DNA of 64,000 nt from the human T2T-CHM13v2.0 reference genome, Homo sapiens. Positions 9,735 to 62,385 of the stretch are shown in pieces. Within the stretch, counting starts at the first letter, position 1. Every line of letters starts with the position of its first letter. The notes beneath the pieces were generated by a model, which did not search any database, had not been told where the DNA came from, and saw only the letters and a list, made by a program, of their open reading frames with translations. The stretch is from assembly GCF_009914755.1 (NCBI RefSeq), contig NC_060932.1. One strand, written 5' to 3'. The position numbers and the translations under genes were made by a program.

Positions 9735-10250
9735 ATTTGTTATTTTCATCTAGGATTTTTCTGTAATTAAAAAAAGTTTTTTGAAAAACAGGTGTCTATA
9801 TTGTTTTACACTAAACTAAAACTGAAGTAACTAACAAGTACAATTCACTGCAGGTACTCTCTTCATCTTGTAGTTCACGCTTAAGCACTGAACCTGTGCT
9901 AAGAAATGTGAGTATTCCTGTAGTCAAAGAGAGTCATCACTCAACCAACAAGCTACGTCCCTGTGAAAATTTTAGCATCTAATCATTAAATTGATTTAAA
10001 GCAAGAGAGATAGTATTGCTATTGTCTTATTAATGGAATGGTTTCAGTCATGTATGCTAATTTTCAATATTAGTACTTTTCAAGACTGGGAAACTCATTT
10101 GTTTTTCACTGAATGTGAATTTGAAAGGGTGAAATGAAATAAACTAAGAAAGGACAATCAAATTAATGTAAAAAAGGCAACAGTAATAAAAACAGTGTTC
10201 ATACCAGTATTTAGCATAGTGCCTGGCAGATGATAGGTACTCCAAAATAC

Positions 10251-10420
10251 TTTTTTTTTTAAAAAGATGGGGTCTTACTAGGTTGTCCAGGTTGGAATGC
10301 AGTGGCTATTCACAGGTGTGATCATTGTGCACTACTGCCTCAAACTCCTGAGCTCAAGCAATTCTCCTGTCTCAGCCTCCTGAGTAGCTGGGACTACAGG
10401 TGCAGCCACTGCACCTGGCT
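10251..10420 (-). mobile_element. Alu monomer (FAM/FRAM-like)
   Basis: Monomeric Alu with ctattcacagg motif. Confidence 0.75.
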
Positions 10421-15908: not shown

Positions 15909-17293
15909 TTTTCTAATTCAAATGTCTGTGGATGTTATATTCAGTGCTCCAATTCTTCAATTTGCTTTGCCTGTGTAAGAGAAAGAAAAAAAATTGTAAA
16001 ATTCAAGGTGTACCACAACTGAAAAATTAACCTATAGAGGAAAATTATTAATTTGTGGTAAACCAGTTTATTTTAAAAAAACATTTTGTCTCCTTGGTTT
16101 GCCATTGTAGCTTGAGCACCTTGTGTAATGCTTGGTACATAATAAGACATTAAATAAATATTGTTAAATGAATGAATCAATAAATTTGCTTCCTCAGGTT
16201 TTAAGCTTCTGGGGGACAAAAACTATGCCTTATTCATCTTTGTATCTCCCTCATATGGCACAATTCTTAACACTGAACATGCGCCATTCACTGTTGAGTT
16301 AAATTGAACTTAACTGAAATTCTTGTTGAAGTAAATGATCTGGAAATGGAAGTGAAAAATCATAGCAAAAAATTCATTTTAAACGTTTATATTGTACATT
16401 GACTAGTGGTGGTTTTCAAGCCCCATCAACCTATCACCAACCAACAAACAAAAAACCCTAAATTCACACTCCATTGCTGCATGGCAGACCACATGGATTT
16501 TTATAATTTCTACCAAGACAACACATCTTCAGATGTTTCTAGGGAATCTTTATGAAGCAATATACAATGGTAGGAATTTTACTGTGCTTGGGTTGTAAAC
16601 TATTGCAAGCTGTTCAATTTAGTAGATTATCTGCACAGGCTGAGTAACCTGTATTGTTCCTTATCCAGTTGAGCCTTAAGCCATTTCAATAGAGCCGAAT
16701 TTTATGAACATAGTGAATTTAAACACTTATTCACTCTTACTCACTCACTCATGCAACATATAAACTGAGCAATTCTCTTCCTCTTTGGGAGATAAAGCGT
16801 ATCCAGGGTGTATCCCAGTGGTTTGGAGCACAAGCCAGACTTCCTAGGTGCAAATTTCCAGTGGATCCCTTACCAGCTTTGAGATCTTTGGTGTACGTCT
16901 TAATCTCTTGCCTTAGTTTCCTCAATTGTAAAATGCAGAAACTAATAGTACTTACCTCACAAGGTTGCTGTGAAGATTAATACATAAAAATTGCCTGGCA
17001 CATACTAAGCATGAATAAAAATCAGTTGTTATTGCCTTCAATGCCTACCATGGACCCTGGAACATTGCAAGTGACTTGTAACTTTTGAATGAATGAATGA
17101 ATGAATGATGAATAAGATGAGAGTTGTGTCTAAACTATGTTTTGTTTTTTTTTGTAATTGCATTCTTTGATCATACAAAAGTTTTGATTGTTCACTCCTT
17201 TTTAGAAATTCCCTATTAGATCAAAAAGAGGCAGAATATGTTCTTTGATAAAGGATATACAGGTAATATTGGCACATGATTACCTGGAGTTGG

Positions 17294-20268: not shown

Positions 20269-22728
20269 CGCTGGTGGCAATAAAATCTAAACAGATGAGG
20301 GCTCAAATACCAACATTACCATTTACAGGTTCTGCTAACACTTGTTGGCCTTACAACTTTGGGATCGTTACTTAGCCAGTTTGAGTTTGTTTACCCATCT
20401 GTAAAATGGAATTTATAATCTCATAGGATTCCAGAGCTTATGTGAGATAATATTCCATGAAATGCTTAGACCATGGGTATTGTTTAGTGGCTCTTATTAT
20501 TATAATGATTACTATAGACCTTGGACTCTGACTGTACCAAAAAAGAACTGATACATTCCTATAAAAAAATCAGGAGTTTTTCTGGAAAGGAACCAGAGAA
20601 GTTTACACATACACAAATAATGTGTCCTTGGGTTACAGACGATGGTCAACATCTTGGTCAATCATTTTATCCTGGTCATAAAGAAGAGGCAAAGGAGTGT
20701 GGATACTGTACCTTAATATCATTACCACTAGAAGACTTAGTTTTCAATTTTCGGCTATTAACTGGATTTTTACAGGAACTGACATATATTCCTATACAAG
20801 TGTACATGTATCATATATTAGGATGATATTCGTAAGGAACGATGAACAAATTTAATTAATTTAGAGTTGTGTTGCAATTTATACTATTTTCTATTGTTTG
20901 ACTGGGTTTTCTTAGTAAGAATCATTCACTTCTAGGGTCTGTGAGTGCATCTCAGGGGTTCTATATACCTAAAATTGTATGCAGAATTTTTGATGTGCAT
21001 ATAGTTTTTCCTCAGAGAGGGTTCATAACTTTCATCAGATTCTCAGAGGGATCCTTGATGAAAGAAAAGTTAAAGAACCATTGATGTTTGAATTTCCTAA
21101 GTAAGTGTGAATTATACATACTTATTTTACTTAGATGGTAAATCATTACCAATAATTTTTCTCCTTGATTCTTGCATGAAAGTACAGGACGGATATTCAT
21201 CAGTTAATTAATTAATTAATTAATTCACTCACTCTTATAACAAACACACAGAGAACCTACTAGGTTGTGTGCCCAGGCAGTGCACTCTTAGTTGGGGATA
21301 CAATTATGAATAATATACAGCCTCTACCCTCAAAATCATCAGTCTCGTCTGGTCAGCGTGTTATGAGGCACTTGTACAGAGTGCTGTGGATGCACAGATG
21401 AGAGGCAATTATGTCTGCCCATGCAATCAGGGAGGGCTTCTCAGAAGAGCTGGCATTTGACTGGGTTCAGCAGAGAGAGGTGGCAAAGGGCATCTTAAAC
21501 AGAAATGGGGACAGAAAGAGGTGAGCTTCAGCTCAGCATTTATTTAGGGACTGGCAAGGTTTCTGACCAGCTGCAATGGGAGCTGGCATGGGAAAGAGGG
21601 CCAGGAAAGGAAGCTCAAAGTAGGGCAGGATTATAGAGCATCTGGGCCACCCTAGAGAGCTGAAGCTTCCTGCAGGCAAGGTGCAAGGGTTTTTTGTTGT
21701 GGTGGTTGTGTGGTTACTGTTAGTGCTTGTTTGCTGGATATTCATTTACTTTATTCTTTGCTAATTCTTGCTGTCAGAAAAATGATTCTAGGTGCTTCAG
21801 AATGGAGAGGAATGTCTCAGAGAAAAACTGAAAGATAATTTTATCCAGTAGCTTTATTTTGCAAATCAGATGACCATGAATATTTGCTTTTTACCAACAC
21901 ACTGTCCTGGTTCATCCTGGGGTGGTTTCTATTGACAAGCTGATGAAGCTTTTTTAGCAGAGAGAACAAATTCCTCGTGAACTGCATTAAACAAGCCCTA
22001 GCTGAAGAAATTTGCAAGTAGTTGATCATTAGTTTTCAGTTATAATACAAAGATTATGTTGGACTAAGCTTTCTTGGACTGCCCCCGGGTAACATGCCCT
22101 AGAGATCTTTTTTTAAACGCACGAGGACCTTCATAAACTCCCATTGAAGGATGGTATAAATCAGCCTTGATATGAAACAGATTTCACTCCAGAGTGAAAA
22201 ATGTTAGATTATATAAGTACACATAACTATACATGTGTCTCTAAGGTGTCATTAAATGTTTTTGCTCAGCAGGTAGACCATTTAAAATCCTGAAAACTTG
22301 AAATGATAAGTAATCAAGTAAATAGCACAGATTCTGAATACTCAGGTGGCTGTAGGCAGTTATCCTGTGGCTCAGAAGGCGCATAAAGATAAATGATTTC
22401 ATTGTGGATCACATGCTATTCCTTGAAAACAGCCTTCGGTGCATAGGTATTTTTCATATGGACAGCTTTGTGCATCAGCTACTTTTGTTTTCATTTCAAG
22501 CCATTTCAAAAACTATTTATATATCTGGATTTTACCTTGTCATATAGAAAGTCAGTTTTATAGCCAGACCAAACAGTTAAAACTGGAGAATAAGATGAGA
22601 AATACATCTTCCTTGATATCTTATTTTCTTTTCCTACAAACTTCTTATTTCTTCTGTGTAGTCAGAGAGTGGTTTCATTTGATCTGCATCTCAGGCTAAT
22701 AAAATTTTTATTTTTTTCTAACTTTTAG

Positions 22729-27600: not shown

Positions 27601-27956
27601 TATTATAATAGAAGAATGTATGAATTGCTAGGAGGGATGCTTTTTGCAGGAGTCAGACAATGAAGGTCTCATTGAAGACATGCCTCCAAGTTATTACTTG
27701 GTGTCCACCTGAAAAAAAGCCCTCACATCCTGTCTAAACTAGTTGAGTGATCTTGGATAAATTACTCCACCCTATTTAGCCTCATTTTTTTTTCATTTGA
27801 AAATGAGAGAGATAGTGGAAATGCCCCCTAAAACATTCCTCTAACTTAGAGCCTCTATTTTATTCTAATCCTGCCGGCTTGTAACTGGACCCTTCAATCA
27901 CTTGCTCCTGACTTGCCAAGACTTTCTGATTCCCGTTACAGCATGATGGACAGCTG

Positions 27957-27981
27957 ACCATTTGTCCCTGGCCCCTGGCAA
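27957..27981 (+). repeat. 25-bp exact dispersed direct repeat, copy 1 (copy 2 at 31567-31591)
   Basis: accatttgtccctggcccctggcaa identical at both positions. Confidence 0.95.
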
Positions 27982-29115: not shown

Positions 29116-30470
29116 TGTGTCCAGAATTTGGTGGGTTCTTGGTCTCACTGACTAAGAATGAAGCCACGGACCCTCACAGTGAGTGTTACATTTCTTGAAG
29201 ACGGTGCGTCCAGAGTTTGTTCCTTCTGATGTTCGGACACGTTCAGAGTTTCTTCCTTCTGATGGGTTCGTAGTCTTGCTGGCCTCAGGAGTGAAGCTGC
29301 AGACCTTTGCAGTGAGTGTTACAGCTCATAAAGGCAATGCAAACCCAAAGAGTGAGCAGCAGCAAGATTTATTGTAAAGGACAAAAGAACAAAACTTCCA
29401 CACAATTGAAAGAGAGCAGAGCCGGTAGCCACTGCTGGCTCTGGCAGCCTGCTTTTATTCCCTTATCTGGCCCCACCCTCATCCTGCTGATTGGTCCATT
29501 TTGCAGAGAGCTGATTGGTCCGTTTTGACAGGGTGCTGATTGGTGCGTTTACAATCCCTGGGCTACACACAAAAGTTCTCTAAGTCCCTACTAGATTAGC
29601 TAGACACAGAGCACTGATTGGTGCGTTTACAAACCTTGATCTAGACTCACGGTGCTGATTGGTGTGTTTACAATCCTTTAGCTAGACATAAAGGTTCTCC
29701 AAGTCCCCACCAGATTACCAAGATACAGAGTGCTGACTGGTGTGTTTTACAAACCTTGAGTTAGACACAAAGTGCTGATTGGTGTATTTACAATCCCTTA
29801 GCTAGACATAAAGGTTCGCCAAGTCCCCACTAGACTAAGGAGCCCAGCTGGCTTCACCTAGTGGATCCTGCACTGGCAGCAGGCGGAGCTGCCCGCCAGT
29901 CTCGCGCGCCCTGCGCCGGCAATCCTCAGCCCTTGGGCGGTGGACGGAACCGGGCGCCGCGGAGCAGGGGGCGGCGCTCGTCGGGGAGGCTCTGGCGTCG
30001 CAGGAGCCCACCGCGGGGGTTGGGAGGAGGCTCGGGCATGGCGGGCTGCAGTTCCCCAGCCCTGCGCCGCGGGGAGGCAGCTGAGGCCTGGCGAGAATTC
30101 GAGCGCAGTGCCGGCACTGCTGGGGAACCCGGCGCACCCTCCGCAGCTGCTAGCCCGGGTGCTAAGCCCCTCACTGCCCGGGCCGGCCGGCGGCTCCGAG
30201 TGCGGGGCCCGCGGGGCCCACGCCCACCCGGAACTCGCGCTGGCCCGCGAGCGCCGCGCGCAGCCCAGGTTCCCGCCCGCGCCACTCCCTCCACACCTCC
30301 CCACAAGCAGAGGGAGCTGGCTCCCGCATTGGCCAGCCCAGAGAGGGGCCCCCAGAGCGCAGTGTCGGGCTGAAGGGCTTCTCGAGCATGCCCAGAGCGG
30401 ACGCCGAGGCCGAGGAGGCGCTGAGAGCGAGCAAGGGCTGCGAGGGCTGCCAGCATGCTGTCACCTCTCA
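29116..30470 (-). mobile_element. Solo LTR12 (ERV9/HERV9 LTR, 12C/D/E-type), 1355 bp
   Basis: Minus strand starts TGAGAGGTGACAGC and ends ...GGACACA; TSD ATAG at 29112-29115 and 30471-30474; CpG-rich U3 ~29860-30450; tandem CCAAT repeats ~29485-29785; GATA site 29461-29468; AATAAAA TATA-like box 29453-29459; polyA signal 29368-29373. Confidence 0.93.
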
Positions 30471-30556
30471 ATAGGAGATCAGTTAATGCATACTGAAGGA
30501 AGGCTTGTTGGAGAAGAATCCTCTCCTGAACCCTGTGGAGACTCTAGAATCCTGCG
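30440..30556 (+). other. SLC30A8: Probable distal non-coding first exon of SLC30A8 (start approximate)
   Basis: Donor GCG|GTAAAT at 30556/30557 beside the CpG-rich LTR12 end; recalled annotation has long SLC30A8 isoforms starting just downstream of AARD; TSS not visible from sequence. Confidence 0.5.
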
Positions 30557-31119
30557 GTAAATGTTCTAATTATTGAAAACATTTCCCAATGCTCACCCTC
30601 ATTAAGGATGTTCTAATGCCTAGGAGACCTACTACCTATCTGATTCTGTCAGAGAAGCCATTTTGTTTTTTGGCAACTGGAAGCAGTGGGGATGAAATAT
30701 TTTCCTAAGGCGTCTCAGGACTGAACTGGCAGCAAAATAGTAAACTGTTTATCAGCTCTTAAATTTTTATACCAGGGAGGTTTAGCAAACTGTCAGAAAA
30801 CAGCCTGAATTGAATTTCTATAATTACTGCTTCCAAATTGGTACTGAGGGTACTAGTTGCTCTAAACTTCTGCAGGATTCAGTCTGGGACTTTTCATGCT
30901 AAGAAATATCTCAAGATTTTAAGGTGGGATTGTCAGGGTCAGAGGACAATGTCCTCTGAAATCCACCAGTATTTTACTGGACTTTACGGTTTACAGTTTA
31001 CCAGGTACCTTACAGTTTACCAACTGCTTTCCAGTTTATAATTTACCAGGTGCTGCCATAGCTGATAGCTCGTTAATCTTACAGTAACCAGCTGAAGTAG
31101 GTGTGCCGTGAGGCTATTG

Positions 31120-31290
31120 AATTTTAAGAAGCATCAAGAAAGCCTGCCTGTCTAACTTTGGAAATATCACCCTCATGCTGTCTTCCCAGGATGTCTCTCT
31201 CCCTAAGTAAGAGATGTTACTTCCTGGAGGGAATGCAGTGTTGGGAATCTGAAGACCCAGCTTTGAGCTGAATTTGCTTTGTGATACCTG
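31120..31290 (+). other. SLC30A8: Probable second distal non-coding 5' exon of SLC30A8 (start approximate)
   Basis: Strong donor CTG|GTGAGT at 31290/31291, inside a MIR-like relic; gene assignment from recalled annotation. Confidence 0.5.
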
Positions 31291-31590
31291 GTGAGTCATT
31301 GATGTCTCTGGGCTTCAATTTTCTCATTTGTAGAAACTTGTAGAGTAAGGCATCGAACTCATAATCATCTTTAAGATTCTTTGGGTTAAGCATGGGCATC
31401 TCCTGCTAATGGTTTTAATTTGAAACAATGTTGTTACCAACTCATTAGTGTGAATTAACCTAGGTGGTGATACCAAAAGGTTGAGCTTTATTTAAAGTGT
31501 GCTTAGTGAGCAATTAAACAAGGGAAGCTTGTTTAAAAAGAAGAGTAGAAAAATACTGAAATTAACACCATTTGTCCCTGGCCCCTGGCA

Positions 31591-32257
31591 AGGATTGCTA
31601 TCTGCTCCTCCTCCCAACCTTCTCTTGGCTATGCTCCAAAACGCCTTCTCTCTTGTAGCACATCCGATGTAAGTTTGCTTCCTATTTACTCCCTTAGCAC
31701 TCAAGTTTCCCCTATGACAGCATCTACCACATGTATCGTAATACCTTATTGAATTATCTGTTCCCCACCCCGCCGTCTAGACTACAAGCAACATGAGAGC
31801 CCAAATCCCATCTTCCAATTTTTTGGTGATTCCTTGTATTTTTATAATTTTGCCTTGGGTTAACTTTATTGAACAGCATGAATCTAACAGTGCAAATTTG
31901 CTCTCTCTTCCTGTCATTCATTCAACATTTTTGTTGTGTCTACGGGGTGCCAGCCACTGTTCTAGGTATGTGTTGAGCATCAGTTTTAAAATAAGCATCT
32001 TTCTGGATGCTGAGCGTAGGACAATAAACCTGAAAAGATGGGATTGGGCTCTCATGTTGCTTGTAGTCTAGATGGCAGGGTGGGGAACAGATAATTCAAT
32101 AAGATATTATGATACATGTGGTAGATGCTGTCTTAGGGGAAAGTTGAGTGCTAAGGGAGTGAATAGGAAGCAAACTTACCTTGGATGTGGTACAAGAGAG
32201 AAGGCGTTTTGGAGCATAGCCAAGAGAAGGTTGGGAGGAGGAGCAGGTAGCAATCCT
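31591..32257. repeat. Long inverted repeat: arms 31591-31814 and 32035-32257, 220-bp spacer
   Basis: Manual alignment gives 11 mismatches plus 1 indel over ~224 bp; also visible as near-identical peptides in ORFs 31492..31704(-) and 32072..32317(+). Confidence 0.97.
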
Positions 32258-32490
32258 AGAGAGAAACAACAGCTCATAGAAGGTGCTAGAGGTGAGCAAA
32301 GTCATCATCTGTATTAGGGAGTAAAGAAAGCTCAATATAGTTGGTGCTTAGAAGAAAGAATGAAGGTGTTAAGAAGTGTGGCTGAAGTGGTTGACAGAGG
32401 TGGACATATCATGACAGGCCTCACAAGCCATGCTTTGGGGTTCAGACTGTATCCTAAGAGCCTGGGTAAACCATTGAAAAATATTTTAAA
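31915..32490 (-). mobile_element. L2 3' relic containing the right arm of the inverted repeat
   Basis: cattcattcaacattt...gtgccagccactgttctagg is the antisense L2 3' end; purine-rich L2-like body continues past the arm. Confidence 0.7.
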
Positions 32491-32549
32491 ATTTAACTTT
32501 TATTATAGCAATACTTGCACATAATATACAAATAATTAAATAATTCTAA

Positions 32550-32952
<403 letters not shown>

Positions 32953-33024
32953 TAATGTGAGTAAGCATCTTTGTTTTATAGATTTTAGACATTATGTCTT
33001 CCTATTATGACAAAGAAGAATTTT

Positions 33025-33471
33025 ATTTATTTATTTATTTATAATGTCAATTTTTATTTTAGATTCAGGGGGTATATGTGCAGATTCTTTTTACCTGGGT
33101 ATATTGCGTGAGGCTGAGGTTAGGGGCATGGTTAATCTCAGCACCGAGATACTGAGCATAGTGCCCGGTAGTTTTTCAATGCTTGCCTCCCTCCCTTTCT
33201 CTCCCCTTTTAGTAGACCCCCATGTCTATTTTGCCATTTTTGTGTCCATGAGTACCTAAAGTTTAGCTCCCACTTATAAGTGAGAACATGTGGTATTTGG
33301 TTTTCTGTTCCTATGTCAATTTGCTTAGGATAACAGCCTCCAGCTGCATCCATGTTGCTGCAAGGACATGATTTTGTTCTTTTTTATGGCTACATAGTAT
33401 TCCATGGTGAATACGTACCACATTTTTTTTCAATCTAATCCATCGTTGATGGGCATCAAGGTTGATTCCAT
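33025..33471 (-). mobile_element. L1 3' end fragment (L1PB/L1MA-like)
   Basis: agctcccacttataagtgagaacatgtggtatttggttttctgttcct is antisense L1 3' sequence. Confidence 0.85.
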
Positions 33472-43469: not shown

Positions 43470-44040
43470 TGGTAGAATACACATAACATATAATTGACCA
43501 TTAGTGACACTTAGCACTTTATAGTGTGATGCGACCACCATGACTACCTAGTTCCAGAACATTTTCATCACCCCCAAATGAAACGCTGTATCCATTAAAC
43601 CATACCTCATCTCTTCCTCCCCAGATCCTGACAACTGCTAATATACTTTATGGATTTGTCAATTCTGAATTTTTCATATAAATGGAACAATACAATTTTT
43701 GTATCTGGCTTTTCACTTAGCATAGTATTTTTTAGGTTTCGTCCATATTGCATTAGTGCATCCTTTCTTTTTATGGCTGAATAATACTTTATTGTATGGA
43801 TATCCCACATTTTATTTATTCATTTTTCAGTTGATGGGCATCTGGGTTGTTTCTACTTTTTGGCTATCGTGAATAGTGCTGCTATGAGCAACTGTGTGCA
43901 AGTTTTCATTTGAACACCTGTTTTCATTGCTTTGGAGTGTATATCCAGGAGTGGAATTACTAGGTCACACAGTAATTTTTTATTTAGCTTATTAAGGCAC
44001 TACCAAATTGCTTTGCACAGCAGCTGTACCATTTTACTGA
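43470..44040 (-). mobile_element. L1MB-like 3' fragment
   Basis: ttttatggctgaataatac...gttgatgggcatctgggttgtttc...gaatagtgctgctatga. Confidence 0.75.
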
Positions 44041-56291: not shown

Positions 56292-56385
56292 AGACCATCT
56301 TGGCCAATATGGTGAAATCCCATCTCTACTTAAAATACAAAAATTAGCCAGGTGTGGTGACGCACGCCTGTAGTCCCAGCTACTC
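56292..56385 (+). mobile_element. Internal Alu fragment (no head, no tail) between 15-bp direct repeats
   Basis: agaccatcttggccaa...aaaatacaaaaattagcc...cccagctactc; cagtgaagctggtaa at 56264-56278 and 56392-56406. Confidence 0.88.
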
Positions 56386-56871
56386 ACTTACCAGTGAAGC
56401 TGGTAAGTTCTCTCTCTTTTTTTTTTTTTTTTACTTCCAAGGTATAAATGCTCCCACCCATGACCTATTTCATGATACCTACAGGGTGTGTCACTGATTG
56501 TGTGGAGTTGGAAAAAGATGTGCACAATAGGCTCCTACAAGCCGATGTAAGCCAGACCCAAAACACCACTGCATGGAACTGATTGGAAGAAAATAGGCTG
56601 TCTACTAAATTTTGCAAGTAGTTGTATTCCCCAAGAAACTAAAACCCTAGCTGACAAAAGCCTGTGAATGTTCTGATCCCTAAGGAATCCATCAAACTCT
56701 CAAGCACGCAAGAGCAGGAAATCAGGAAATCTGTTGCCTAGAAGGGCATACTCTCCAACGTCTTCAGCTGGGGCTACAGAGACTAACTGATAAAGAGGGC
56801 TCTTCCAGAGGGCAAAGCCAGGAGCGCAGAGGGCAATTGACAGGGAATCATTCCCAGACATCACAATGTAG

Positions 56872-57979
<1,108 letters not shown>

Positions 57980-61594: not shown

Positions 61595-62385
61595 ATTTTT
61601 TTTAAAGTTATATTTTAGATTCAAGAGTACGTGTGTAGGTTTGTTATACAGGTAAATTGCATGTCACAGGAGTTTAGCATACAGATTATTTCACCACCCA
61701 GGTAATAAGCATAGCACCTGTTAGGTAGTTTTTCGATCCTCCCATTCCTCCCTCTCACTACCCTCAAGCAGGTCCTAGTATCTGTTGTTCCCTACTTTGT
61801 ATGCATATGTACTAAATGTTCAGCTCCCACTTGTGGGTGAGAACATGTGGTATTTGACTTTCTGTTTCTATATTAGCTCACTTAGGATAATGGCCTCCCA
61901 CTCCATCCATGTTGCTGCAAAAGACATGATCTTGTTCTTTTTTATGGCTGTGTAGTATTCCATGGTGTGTATGTACTACATATTTTAAATCCAGTCTATG
62001 ATTGATGGGCATTTAGGTTGATTCTGTGTCTTTGCTATTGTGAATAGTGCTGTGATGAACATATGTGTGCATGTGTCTTTATGATAGAATCATTTACATT
62101 CCTTTGTGTATATACTCAGTAATAGGATTGCTGGGTTGAATGGTAATTCTGCTTTGAGTTCTTTGAGAAATTGTTACACTGCTTTCCACAATGGCTAAAC
62201 TAATTTATATTCCCACCAGCAGTGTATAAACATTCCCTTTTCTCTGCAACCTTGCCAGAATCTGTTATTTTTTCATTTTTAGTAATAGCCATTCTGACTG
62301 ATGTCATAGATGGTATCTCATTGTGGTTTTGATTTGTATTTCTCTAATGGTTAGTGATGTTGGCCATTCTTTCATATGCTTAATG
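61595..62385 (-). mobile_element. L1MA-like 3' fragment
   Basis: Antisense L1 3' UTR and ORF2 end (tttccacaatggctaaactaattta...ttcccaccagcagtgtat). Confidence 0.85.

What the first reader, a model, noticed from the sequence alone, without database searches (positions are those of the whole stretch)
31591..32257. Young ~224-bp inverted duplication of an ancient L2 segment, able to form a long hairpin or cruciform
Seen: arms 31591-31814 and 32035-32257 are reverse complements with 11 mismatches and 1 indel (~95%), separated by 220 bp. The right arm sits inside a continuous L2 relic; the left arm ends abruptly. Known: independent L2 copies are far more diverged than this, and tail-to-tail L2 hairpins gave rise to miRNAs such as miR-28 and miR-151. 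Inference: this is a local inverted duplication or gene conversion. On a + strand transcript 5 of the 11 mismatches become G-U pairs, giving a non-Alu dsRNA stem 300 nt past the donor at 31290. It is a candidate ADAR or Dicer substrate, splicing modulator, or substrate for spacer inversion.
Basis: partly seen in the sequence, partly recalled or inferred. Interest (0 to 1): 0.8.

Follow-up and report, generated by a model that had tools for sequence, protein, structure and literature searches.

The report
Old inverted duplication in SLC30A8 intron
A 224-base stretch upstream of the main SLC30A8 gene body is present twice in opposite orientation, most likely a tens-of-millions-of-years-old DNA copying accident that left a tell-tale 25-base patch, and nothing yet shows that it does anything.

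Summary
Arms 31591-31814 and 32035-32257 are reverse complements: 212 matches, 11 mismatches, 1 indel, 220-nt spacer. The predicted RNA hairpin is -479.5 kcal/mol, z = -39.

The arm has no other near copy in the 3.1-Gb genome. Its inner 131 nt belong to a dispersed repeat that I recall as the L2 3' end. Independent copies of that family are rarely alignable pairwise (5 collinear of 435 pairs). So 95% identity means one local duplication, not two insertions.

New here: a 25-nt exact direct copy of 27957-27981 sits at 31567-31591, overlapping the outer edge of the left arm by 1 nt. These are the only two exact copies in the genome. That points to a multi-template switch or fold-back repair event.

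Which arm is the copy is likely but not proven: left arm about 75%.

Divergence of 5.1% (95% CI 2.8-8.6%) suggests roughly 15-35 Myr.

A role as dsRNA, ADAR or Dicer substrate is untestable here. It matches no miRNA family at threshold, and its 220-nt spacer argues against cruciform extrusion. It is a new member of a known kind, of modest interest.

The parts
31591..31814 (+). Left arm, 224 nt. Probably the copy. Its inner 131 nt (31684-31814) are L2-like in sense orientation.
   Evidence: alignment to the right arm. (collinear with family copies from about 90 nt upstream to 40 nt downstream of the family motif start). No family tail follows it.
32035..32257 (-). Right arm, 223 nt. Probably the source. 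It lies next to the L2-like tail in the same orientation.
   Evidence: Profile m5 aligns 32128-31907 (minus) to model 257-434, E 1.1e-7 in the whole window.
31815..32034 (.). 220-nt spacer, which is the loop of the hairpin. The left ~96 nt are unidentified. The right ~125 nt are the 3' end of the L2-like relic on the minus strand.
   Evidence: no internal palindromy. (tail hits).
31911..31975 (-). Conserved 3' tail block of the dispersed (L2-like) family.
   Evidence: Independent profile k7: E 4.8e-7 in the window, 1e-8 in the region. The tail pattern taken from the window has 58 genome hits against 0 for the reversed control.
31567..31591 (+). 25-nt patch, an exact direct duplicate of 27957-27981. 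It overlaps the first base of the left arm.
   Evidence: the only match of 14 nt or more between 31200-32500 and the rest of the window, apart from the arms. (2 exact copies in 3.1 Gb, both here; 2 more at 3 mismatches; 0 in the control).
27957..27981 (+). The other copy of the 25-mer, 3,610 bp upstream. Probably the template.
32343..32424 (-). Weak further piece of the L2-like relic (model 180-265). It is collinear with the right arm's inner part.
   Evidence: E 0.087 (k7) and 0.18 (m5) in searches of about 1.5-2.6 kb. Not significant window-wide.
31146..31290 (+). Annotated upstream SLC30A8 exon whose donor (GT at 31291) lies 301 nt before the left arm. This places the repeat in an intron of those transcripts.
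   Evidence: Hub annotation; sequence.

Best explanation
This is the fossil of one DNA-level copying accident. I infer a date from divergence in the catarrhine or early ape lineage.

Proposed event (inferred): a broken or stalled DNA end near 31566/31815 primed synthesis on the wrong templates. It copied about 223 nt of nearby sequence (today 32035-32257) in reverse-complement orientation, by fold-back or strand switch. It then copied 25 nt from 3.6 kb upstream (27957-27981) in direct orientation, and then rejoined. The result was a 248-bp insertion (31567-31814) that forms an inverted repeat with its source across a 220-bp spacer.

The copied piece included part of an ancient L2-like relic. 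Since then the arms have drifted apart by 5%.

Shown: the repeat, its sharp ends, its uniqueness in the genome, the 25-nt patch, and the L2-like nature of the inner arm and of the tail. Inferred: the single event, its direction (left arm is the copy, about 75%), the date, and neutrality.

In transcripts that start at the upstream SLC30A8 exons, the repeat would fold into a 224-bp intronic RNA stem. There is no evidence that this matters, and I take it to be a neutral relic.
For: - Exact inverted repeat with abrupt ends.
- No other copy of the arm in the own genome at BLAST sensitivity, and none in the window with nhmmer or sensitive blastn.
- Independent copies of the same family are almost never alignable pairwise: 5 collinear hits among 435 pairs of upstream regions.
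- The window's copy gives only E 1e-4 to 1e-7 tail hits to other copies.
- The 25-nt patch sits at the left arm's outer edge and is unique to these two places in 3.1 Gb.
- The left arm is not followed by the family's conserved tail under any profile or test.
- The right arm's inner part lies in order and orientation with the tail and with a weak upstream piece that ends at model 265 where the arm part begins at 257.
- Mismatches are spread along the arm; the longest identical run is 56 nt.
- Multi-template insertions of this kind are described in the human germline (PMC8421209, passages read). Template switches that create hairpins in one step are described in primates (PMC10710096, passages read).
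Against: - Junction microhomology is minimal: 0, 1 and 0 nt.
- Direction is not settled. With the right arm computationally removed, profile k7 joins 32424-32258 and 32034-31905 into one collinear hit (27.6 bits, E 1.6e-10, against 21.7 bits intact). That is what an insertion of the right arm into the relic would give.
- In the right-hand relic there are about 56-65 nt too many between the arm's family motif and the tail block.
- The two profiles disagree by only 3-6 bits, and the finer mappings are not significant against shuffles.
- No outgroup genome could be examined, so absence of the block in other primates is not shown.
- A fold-back copy of 224 nt is longer than the 5-34 bp (PMC11724301, abstract only) or 28-83 nt (PMC10710096) reported for such events.
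Confidence: 0.7

Rival explanations
1. Same kind of event, opposite direction. The left arm is the original and lies in its own old L2-like fragment. The right arm is the inverted copy, made by the nascent strand snapping back on itself and inserted into a second, oppositely oriented L2-like relic. The 25-mer at 27957 would then be a later short templated copy that stopped at the base of the hairpin.
For: - Removing the right arm lets profile k7 align the flanks as one collinear relic (model 180-432, 27.6 against 21.7 bits).
- The 20 nt just inside the right arm resemble the family sequence upstream of its motif (posterior 7-8; stacked-diagonal z 6.9).
- Total length of the relic fits the model better without the arm.
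Against: - It needs two events that share a boundary, instead of one.
- The larger profile m5 does not reproduce the joined hit and instead extends through the arm.
- The mapping of the first 62 nt inside the arm is not significant against shuffles: 9 observed, mean 5.1, max 39.
- The left arm has no detectable tail after it.
Confidence: 0.2
2. Two ancient L2 insertions in opposite orientation whose 224-bp overlap has been kept alike by gene conversion, or by selection for a pairing stem. The reader cites such hairpins for L2-derived miRNAs.
For: Many L2-derived miRNAs come from two nearby L2 elements in opposite orientation (PMC6433296, passage read). The inner arm is L2-like.
Against: - The outer ~93 nt of the arm are not L2-like by any test, yet are duplicated equally well.
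- The left copy lacks the family tail.
- Identity falls from 95% to background at both ends with no graded zone.
- The 25-nt patch marks a rearrangement junction.
- There is no Rfam miRNA hit at threshold.
Confidence: 0.04
3. Whatever its origin, the hairpin now works as an intronic double-stranded RNA: a hyper-editing (ADAR) target, a source of small RNAs, or a modulator of splicing of the upstream SLC30A8 exons.
For: - A very stable predicted stem.
- It lies 301 nt downstream of an annotated donor, in sense-transcribed intron (hub table).
- There are more G-U than A-C mismatches on the + strand: 5 against 2.
Against: - No expression, editing or small-RNA data can be examined here.
- The 11 mismatches show ordinary drift.
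- The 5 against 2 split is not significant.
- A 224-bp stem with a 220-nt loop is unlike a pri-miRNA (PMC10710096 states a preference for a ~35-bp stem).
- The only miRNA-family overlap in Rfam is a plant family at 25 bits against a threshold of 100.
- No paper links SLC30A8 to such an element.
Confidence: 0.08
4. Assembly artefact or chimeric read.
For: None found.
Against: - The arms differ at 12 positions and are separated by 220 nt of unique sequence that contains an old repeat tail. Fold-back artefacts give identical, abutting arms.
- The patch and the arms are embedded in normal flanks.
Confidence: 0.01

Closest known systems
Template-switch mutations (TSMs) that create hairpins in one step (Monttinen, Loytynoja and co-workers; PMC10710096, passages read; bioRxiv 10.1101/2021.04.15.439925, search-listing abstract snippet only)
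   Same: A reverse-complement copy of nearby sequence is inserted close to its source. This gives instant near-perfect pairing, often in introns. The paper mentions cases with more than two switches.
   Different: The events described there are 28-83 nt, with stems of 30-55 nt and short loops. Here the copy is 224 nt with a 220-nt loop, plus a second template 3.6 kb away. The ancestral state is not shown here.
MMBIR-type templated insertions in the human germline (PMC8421209, passages read)
   Same: An insertion assembled from more than one nearby template (up to five reported there), inverted or direct, fixed as a harmless variant.
   Different: That study finds microhomology at most junctions. 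Here it is 0-1 nt after about 5% later drift.
Fold-back (snap-back) synthesis at double-strand breaks, SD-MMEJ / polymerase theta (PMC11724301 abstract; PMC2943611 and PMC5728401, search listing only)
   Same: The 3' end folds onto its own strand and copies it, giving an inverted duplication next to the break. It can then switch to the other end.
   Different: Reported tracts are mostly 5-34 bp. This one is about seven times longer.
L2-derived miRNA hairpins (miR-28, miR-151 and others; PMC6433296, passage read)
   Same: Two L2-like pieces in opposite orientation pair with each other. The arm contains the same family motif region.
   Different: Those are short hairpins processed by the miRNA pathway. 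Here the stem is 224 bp with a 220-nt loop, with no Rfam match at threshold and no small-RNA evidence.
Inverted Alu pairs, the usual long dsRNA and ADAR substrates and fragile inverted repeats (PMC10164571 introduction read; PMC3215922 search listing only)
   Same: A long intronic inverted repeat able to form dsRNA, and a fold-back in single-stranded DNA.
   Different: - It is not Alu.
- It is a single-locus duplication rather than two insertions.
- At 95% it exceeds 19 of the other 20 pairs in this window, which are 78-87%; the 95-nt pair I17 is 96%.
- The 220-nt spacer is far above the 12-20 bp at which cruciform-driven instability drops about 40-fold.

Membership tests
L2 (LINE-2) 3' end relic (name recalled; no repeat library available) | Conserved 3' tail block of the family. 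| tested here: met
   31911-31975 on the minus strand. Profile k7, built from other genomic copies: E 4.8e-7. Profile m5: E 1.1e-7. The tail pattern has 58 genome hits against 0 in the control.
L2 (LINE-2) 3' end relic | The arm sequence is homologous and collinear with the family upstream of the tail. | tested here: met
   Met for the inner 131 nt only. 30 of 83 best local alignments fall on the collinear diagonal; shuffles give mean 8.4 and max 23 of 30. Mean score z is 3.6 in sense against 0.2 in antisense.
L2 (LINE-2) 3' end relic | The whole arm, outer ~93 nt included, belongs to the family. | tested here: inconclusive
   No diagonal clustering for arm positions 1-75 or 40-130. No profile hit for the arm alone.
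L2 (LINE-2) 3' end relic | Classification by a curated repeat library (Dfam / RepeatMasker). | not testable with these tools
   No such library is on hand. The family name rests on my recall of its 3' end.
Template-switch / MMBIR templated insertion | The inserted sequence is a copy of nearby sequence, inverted or direct. | tested here: met
   224 nt inverted from 221-666 bp downstream. 25 nt direct from 3,610 bp upstream.
Template-switch / MMBIR templated insertion | Microhomology at the switch points. | tested here: inconclusive
   0 nt, 1 nt (plus 2 of the next 3) and 0 nt. Later substitutions may have erased it.
Template-switch / MMBIR templated insertion | The derived state is absent from outgroup species. 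| not testable with these tools
   No primate or other mammalian genome is searchable here.
miRNA precursor | Match to a known miRNA family, or a stem of about 35 bp with a short apical loop. | tested here: not met
   Rfam at E up to 10 gives only a plant MIR824 overlap, at 25.4 bits against a gathering score of 100. The stem is 224 bp and the loop 220 nt.
Long dsRNA substrate of ADAR | A long near-perfect intramolecular duplex in a transcribed region. | tested here: met
   The predicted duplex is met. The position in an annotated intron comes from the hub table.
Long dsRNA substrate of ADAR | Observed A-to-G clusters in RNA. | not testable with these tools
   No RNA data. No paper found.
Cruciform-prone palindrome / fragile inverted repeat | A spacer of a few to about 20 bp. 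| tested here: not met
   The spacer is 220 nt. Criterion from the introduction of PMC10164571.
DNA transposon or MITE with long terminal inverted repeats | Multiple copies in the genome and target-site duplication. | tested here: not met
   Only the self matches appear in the own genome. No flanking duplication is seen in the junction sequences. The spacer holds an unrelated old repeat tail.

The most novel reading that the evidence does not exclude
The locus preserves, almost intact, a three-template germline repair event: a 224-nt fold-back copy plus a 25-nt patch fetched from 3.6 kb away on the opposite side of the break. Fold-back synthesis in the primate germline could then run an order of magnitude longer than the tracts seen in experimental systems, and could create in one step a long intronic dsRNA hairpin beside the upstream promoter of a diabetes-relevant gene. 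The boldest extension is that the hairpin is edited or diced in the tissues that use the upstream SLC30A8 exons and affects their splicing.
Probability: 0.08. Interest if true: 0.55.

Novelty: new member of a known kind. Interest (0 to 1): 0.3.

Why it matters
As a structure it is ordinary. The human genome holds millions of inverted duplicates (4.3 million by the criteria of PMC5398296, section read), and template switching is an accepted way of making them.

Two things give it some value:
- The 25-nt patch makes the mechanism readable from a single genome, which is uncommon for an event this old.
- It is a clean non-Alu example of a long (224-bp, 95%) intronic stem. It could serve as a test case for how far ADAR editing, or innate dsRNA sensing, depends on repeat class rather than on structure.

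It has no demonstrated bearing on SLC30A8 function.

Tried and rejected
- **Palindromy of the spacer and homology of the outer flanks.** Neither was found.
- **Other templated patches.** Scanning 31200-32500 for exact matches of 13 nt or more elsewhere in the window found only the 25-mer above chance. A 13-nt match at the inner junction (31812-31824 = 32614-32626) is T-rich and within chance expectation.
- **Repeat profiles built from genomic copies.**
  - The first L2-like profile was seeded with the window's own copy and is biased.
  - A motif-anchored MAFFT alignment was spoiled by Alu insertions.
  - Independent profiles k7 and m5 agree only on the tail. They disagree on whether the right arm belongs in the relic.
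  - Stacked-diagonal counts were confounded by T-rich composition, so I replaced them with shuffle-controlled counts.
- **The 25-mer plus arm start as a contiguous piece of a second large family** (pattern with 1,349 genome hits against 3 controls; I recall it as an old L1 3' region). The family profile matches only the 25-mer itself in both places and stops at its end. The family had been picked through its likeness to the 25-mer, so this carries no weight.
- **The sequence right of the right arm as a MIR-like element crossing the arm boundary.** A MIR-like profile of 68 copies finds nothing in 32036-32500 at E up to 100.
- **Literature on upstream SLC30A8 transcripts.** Nothing usable.

Full report
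**1. The observation.**

- The repeat finder finds one inverted pair in 31000-33000.
- A gapped alignment gives 31591-31814 against the reverse complement of 32035-32257: 212 matches, 11 mismatches (7 transitions, 4 transversions) and one 1-nt indel. The spacer is 220 nt.
- Folded as RNA, 31560-32290 gives one long stem: -479.5 kcal/mol against -202.3 +/- 7.1 for 20 shuffles. As DNA it gives -274.8 against -82.0 +/- 3.8.
- Similarity ends abruptly at all four arm ends. The spacer is not palindromic (172 of 300 shuffles reach its score). The outer flanks are at most marginally alike (15 of 300).
- Five of the mismatches are G-U on a + strand RNA and two on a - strand RNA.

**2. It is a single local duplication.**
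- A BLAST-level search of the window's own 3.1-Gb genome with 31560-32290 returns only the region itself and the two arms hitting each other. That tool's first look is coarse, so old diverged relatives would be missed.
- Within the 64-kb window, nhmmer and a sensitive blastn find no other relative of 31300-32620.
- Among 21 inverted pairs of 80 nt or more within 3 kb in the window, this one has the shortest spacer. Apart from one 95-nt pair, it also has the highest identity. The rest are 78-87% alike and lie in the ~300-bp masked stretches listed by the hub.

**3. What the arms are made of.**

No repeat library is available, so I built profiles from genomic copies.
- A pattern taken from the window's spacer (tail block) hits 58 places in the genome against 0 for the reversed control.
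- A 17-nt motif taken from one of those copies hits 483 against 5.
- I recall this dispersed family as the 3' end of L2. The name comes from no call.
- A profile seeded with an unrelated copy (k7; 61 hits) finds the window's tail at 31975-31912 on the minus strand, E 4.8e-7.
- A larger profile (m5; 124 hits in 115 copies) finds 32128-31907, model 257-434, E 1.1e-7.
- The inner 131 nt of the arm are collinear with family copies. 30 of 83 best local alignments fall on the expected diagonal; the mean over 30 shuffles is 8.4 and the maximum 23.
- The outer ~93 nt of the arm could not be assigned to the L2-like profile, to a MIR-like profile of 68 copies, or to a third large family.
- Independent copies of the L2-like family are so diverged that only 5 collinear matches appear among 435 pairs of their upstream regions. 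Two independent insertions therefore cannot be 95% alike over 224 nt.

**4. The new clue.**

The only other exact match of 14 nt or more between 31200-32500 and the rest of the window is a 25-mer at 31567-31591 that equals 27957-27981, in the same orientation.
- In the whole genome this 25-mer occurs exactly twice, both times here. Two further places differ at 3 positions, and the reversed control finds none.
- Its last base is the first base of the left arm.
- The flanks of the two copies are otherwise unrelated.

So the left arm's outer end is a junction where two foreign pieces meet: 25 nt copied directly from 3.6 kb upstream, and 224 nt copied in reverse complement from 221-666 bp downstream. 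That is the signature of serial template switching.

**5. A mechanism consistent with all the templates (inferred).**
- A break between 31566 and 31815 is resected.
- The 3' end on the right side folds back on its own strand at about 32035 and copies to 32257.
- It then anneals to the single-stranded overhang of the left side at 27981. The junction shares 1 base, and 2 of the next 3.
- It copies 25 nt and finally joins the left end.
- A replication-fork version (MMBIR) gives the same product.

Multi-template insertions of up to five pieces are reported as human germline variants (PMC8421209, passages read). Template switches that create complete hairpins, including multi-switch cases, are reported for primate introns, with tracts of 28-83 nt (PMC10710096, passages read). 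Fold-back copies at breaks in yeast are mostly 5-34 bp (PMC11724301, abstract only). The present tract is much longer than any of these.

**6. Which arm is the copy.**

For the left arm being the copy:
- the patch at its outer edge;
- the absence of the family tail after it in every test;
- the right arm's inner part lying in the right order and orientation with the tail, and with a weak further piece at 32424-32343 that ends at model 265 where the arm part starts at 257.

Against:
- Between the arm's family motif and the tail block there are about 56-65 nt too many.
- With the right arm computationally taken out, profile k7 aligns the two flanks as one relic: model 180-432, 27.6 bits against 21.7. 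This is as expected if the right arm had been inserted there.
- Profile m5 does not reproduce that.
- The finer mappings are not significant against shuffles.

I put the left arm as the copy at about 75%. Only outgroup genomes, which are not searchable here, can settle it.

**7. Age.**
- Divergence is 11 of 223 aligned bases (4.9%, Wilson 95% interval 2.8-8.6%), or 5.1% after Jukes-Cantor or Kimura correction.
- Two arms diverge like two lineages. From general knowledge of primate divergences (human-orangutan about 3%, human-macaque about 6%; recalled), this places the event roughly 15-35 million years ago, if no gene conversion has occurred since.
- Mismatches are spread evenly.
- Four of the 11 are CpG in the left arm against TpG or CpA in the right. 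The left arm has 5 CpG and the right 1 (Fisher p = 0.048). This is unexplained and possibly chance.

**8. Function.**
- The repeat lies 301 nt downstream of the donor of an annotated upstream SLC30A8 exon (hub table; GT at 31291). It lies about 1.1 kb downstream of a CpG-rich stretch (30000-30499: GC 0.72, 47 CpG). In those transcripts it would therefore be intronic and would form a 224-bp stem.
- It matches no Rfam family at threshold. The only overlap is a plant miRNA family at 25 bits against a gathering score of 100.
- Its geometry is unlike a pri-miRNA.
- A 220-nt spacer makes cruciform extrusion in duplex DNA unlikely. Going from a 12-bp to a 20-bp spacer already lowers Alu-repeat recombination about 40-fold (PMC10164571, introduction read). 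The same paper shows that such repeats can interact in long single-stranded DNA.
- Editing, small RNAs, splicing effects and spacer inversion cannot be tested with the tools here.
- Two literature searches found nothing on this element. Six papers hold both 'SLC30A8' and 'inverted repeat', none about this locus by title and abstract snippet. None of the 8 papers listed for 'SLC30A8 / A-to-I / dsRNA' contains SLC30A8.

**9. Verdict.**

The finding is real and its core inference (a local inverted duplication) holds. The added patch makes template switching the best-supported mechanism. It is a new member of a known kind, probably neutral, and of modest interest. The main open points are the direction of copying, the identity of the outer arm, and any RNA-level activity.

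Noticed in passing
window 31250-31332 (+): A MIR-like profile built here hits this stretch (model 61-144, E 8.5e-6). It spans the 3' end of the annotated upstream SLC30A8 exon and its donor at 31290/31291, so the exon end and splice site appear to be repeat-derived.
   Followed up: no
window 30000-30499: A CpG-rich stretch (GC 0.72, 47 CpG in 500 nt) at the first annotated upstream SLC30A8 exon. It looks like a CpG-island promoter.
   Followed up: no
window 31591-31814 vs 32035-32257: CpG asymmetry. The left arm keeps 5 CpG and the right arm 1. All four CpG-type differences are CpG on the left (Fisher p = 0.048). Possibly chance, possibly different germline methylation.
   Followed up: partly
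window 56292-56386 and 57805-57899: A second high-identity inverted pair: 95 nt, 96%, 1,418 nt apart.
   Followed up: no
window 31976-32016: A small local hairpin (7-bp stem, 4-nt loop) is predicted inside the spacer, in the stretch where the L2-like relic has about 56-65 extra nt relative to the family profile. It might be a separate small template-switch or duplication.
   Followed up: no
window 31812-31824 and 32614-32626: A 13-nt exact T-rich match spans the inner junction of the left arm. It is within chance expectation for this scan.
   Followed up: partly
window 27957-27981 / 31567-31591; loci L006, L007: The 25-mer resembles 24 positions of a very large dispersed family (pattern with 1,349 genome hits against 3 controls; I recall it as an old L1 3' region). 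The family profile stops at the end of the 25-mer in both places. Selection of the family was circular, so the meaning is unclear.
   Followed up: yes
window 43510-43788, 61844-61962, 33275-33404 (+): Copies of that same large family (E 1.3e-19, 4.2e-8, 1.1e-5).
   Followed up: no
window 27614-27683 (-), 21223-21332 (-), 16094-16183 (+), 17038-17107 (+), 10196-10252 (+): Other fragments of the L2-like family in the window.
   Followed up: no
window 32632-32926 (-): Two sub-threshold Rfam SRP-RNA matches (60.6 and 49.2 bits against 70), and mir-1268 / mir-3135 matches below threshold. This is the pattern expected of an Alu element just right of the repeat.
   Followed up: no
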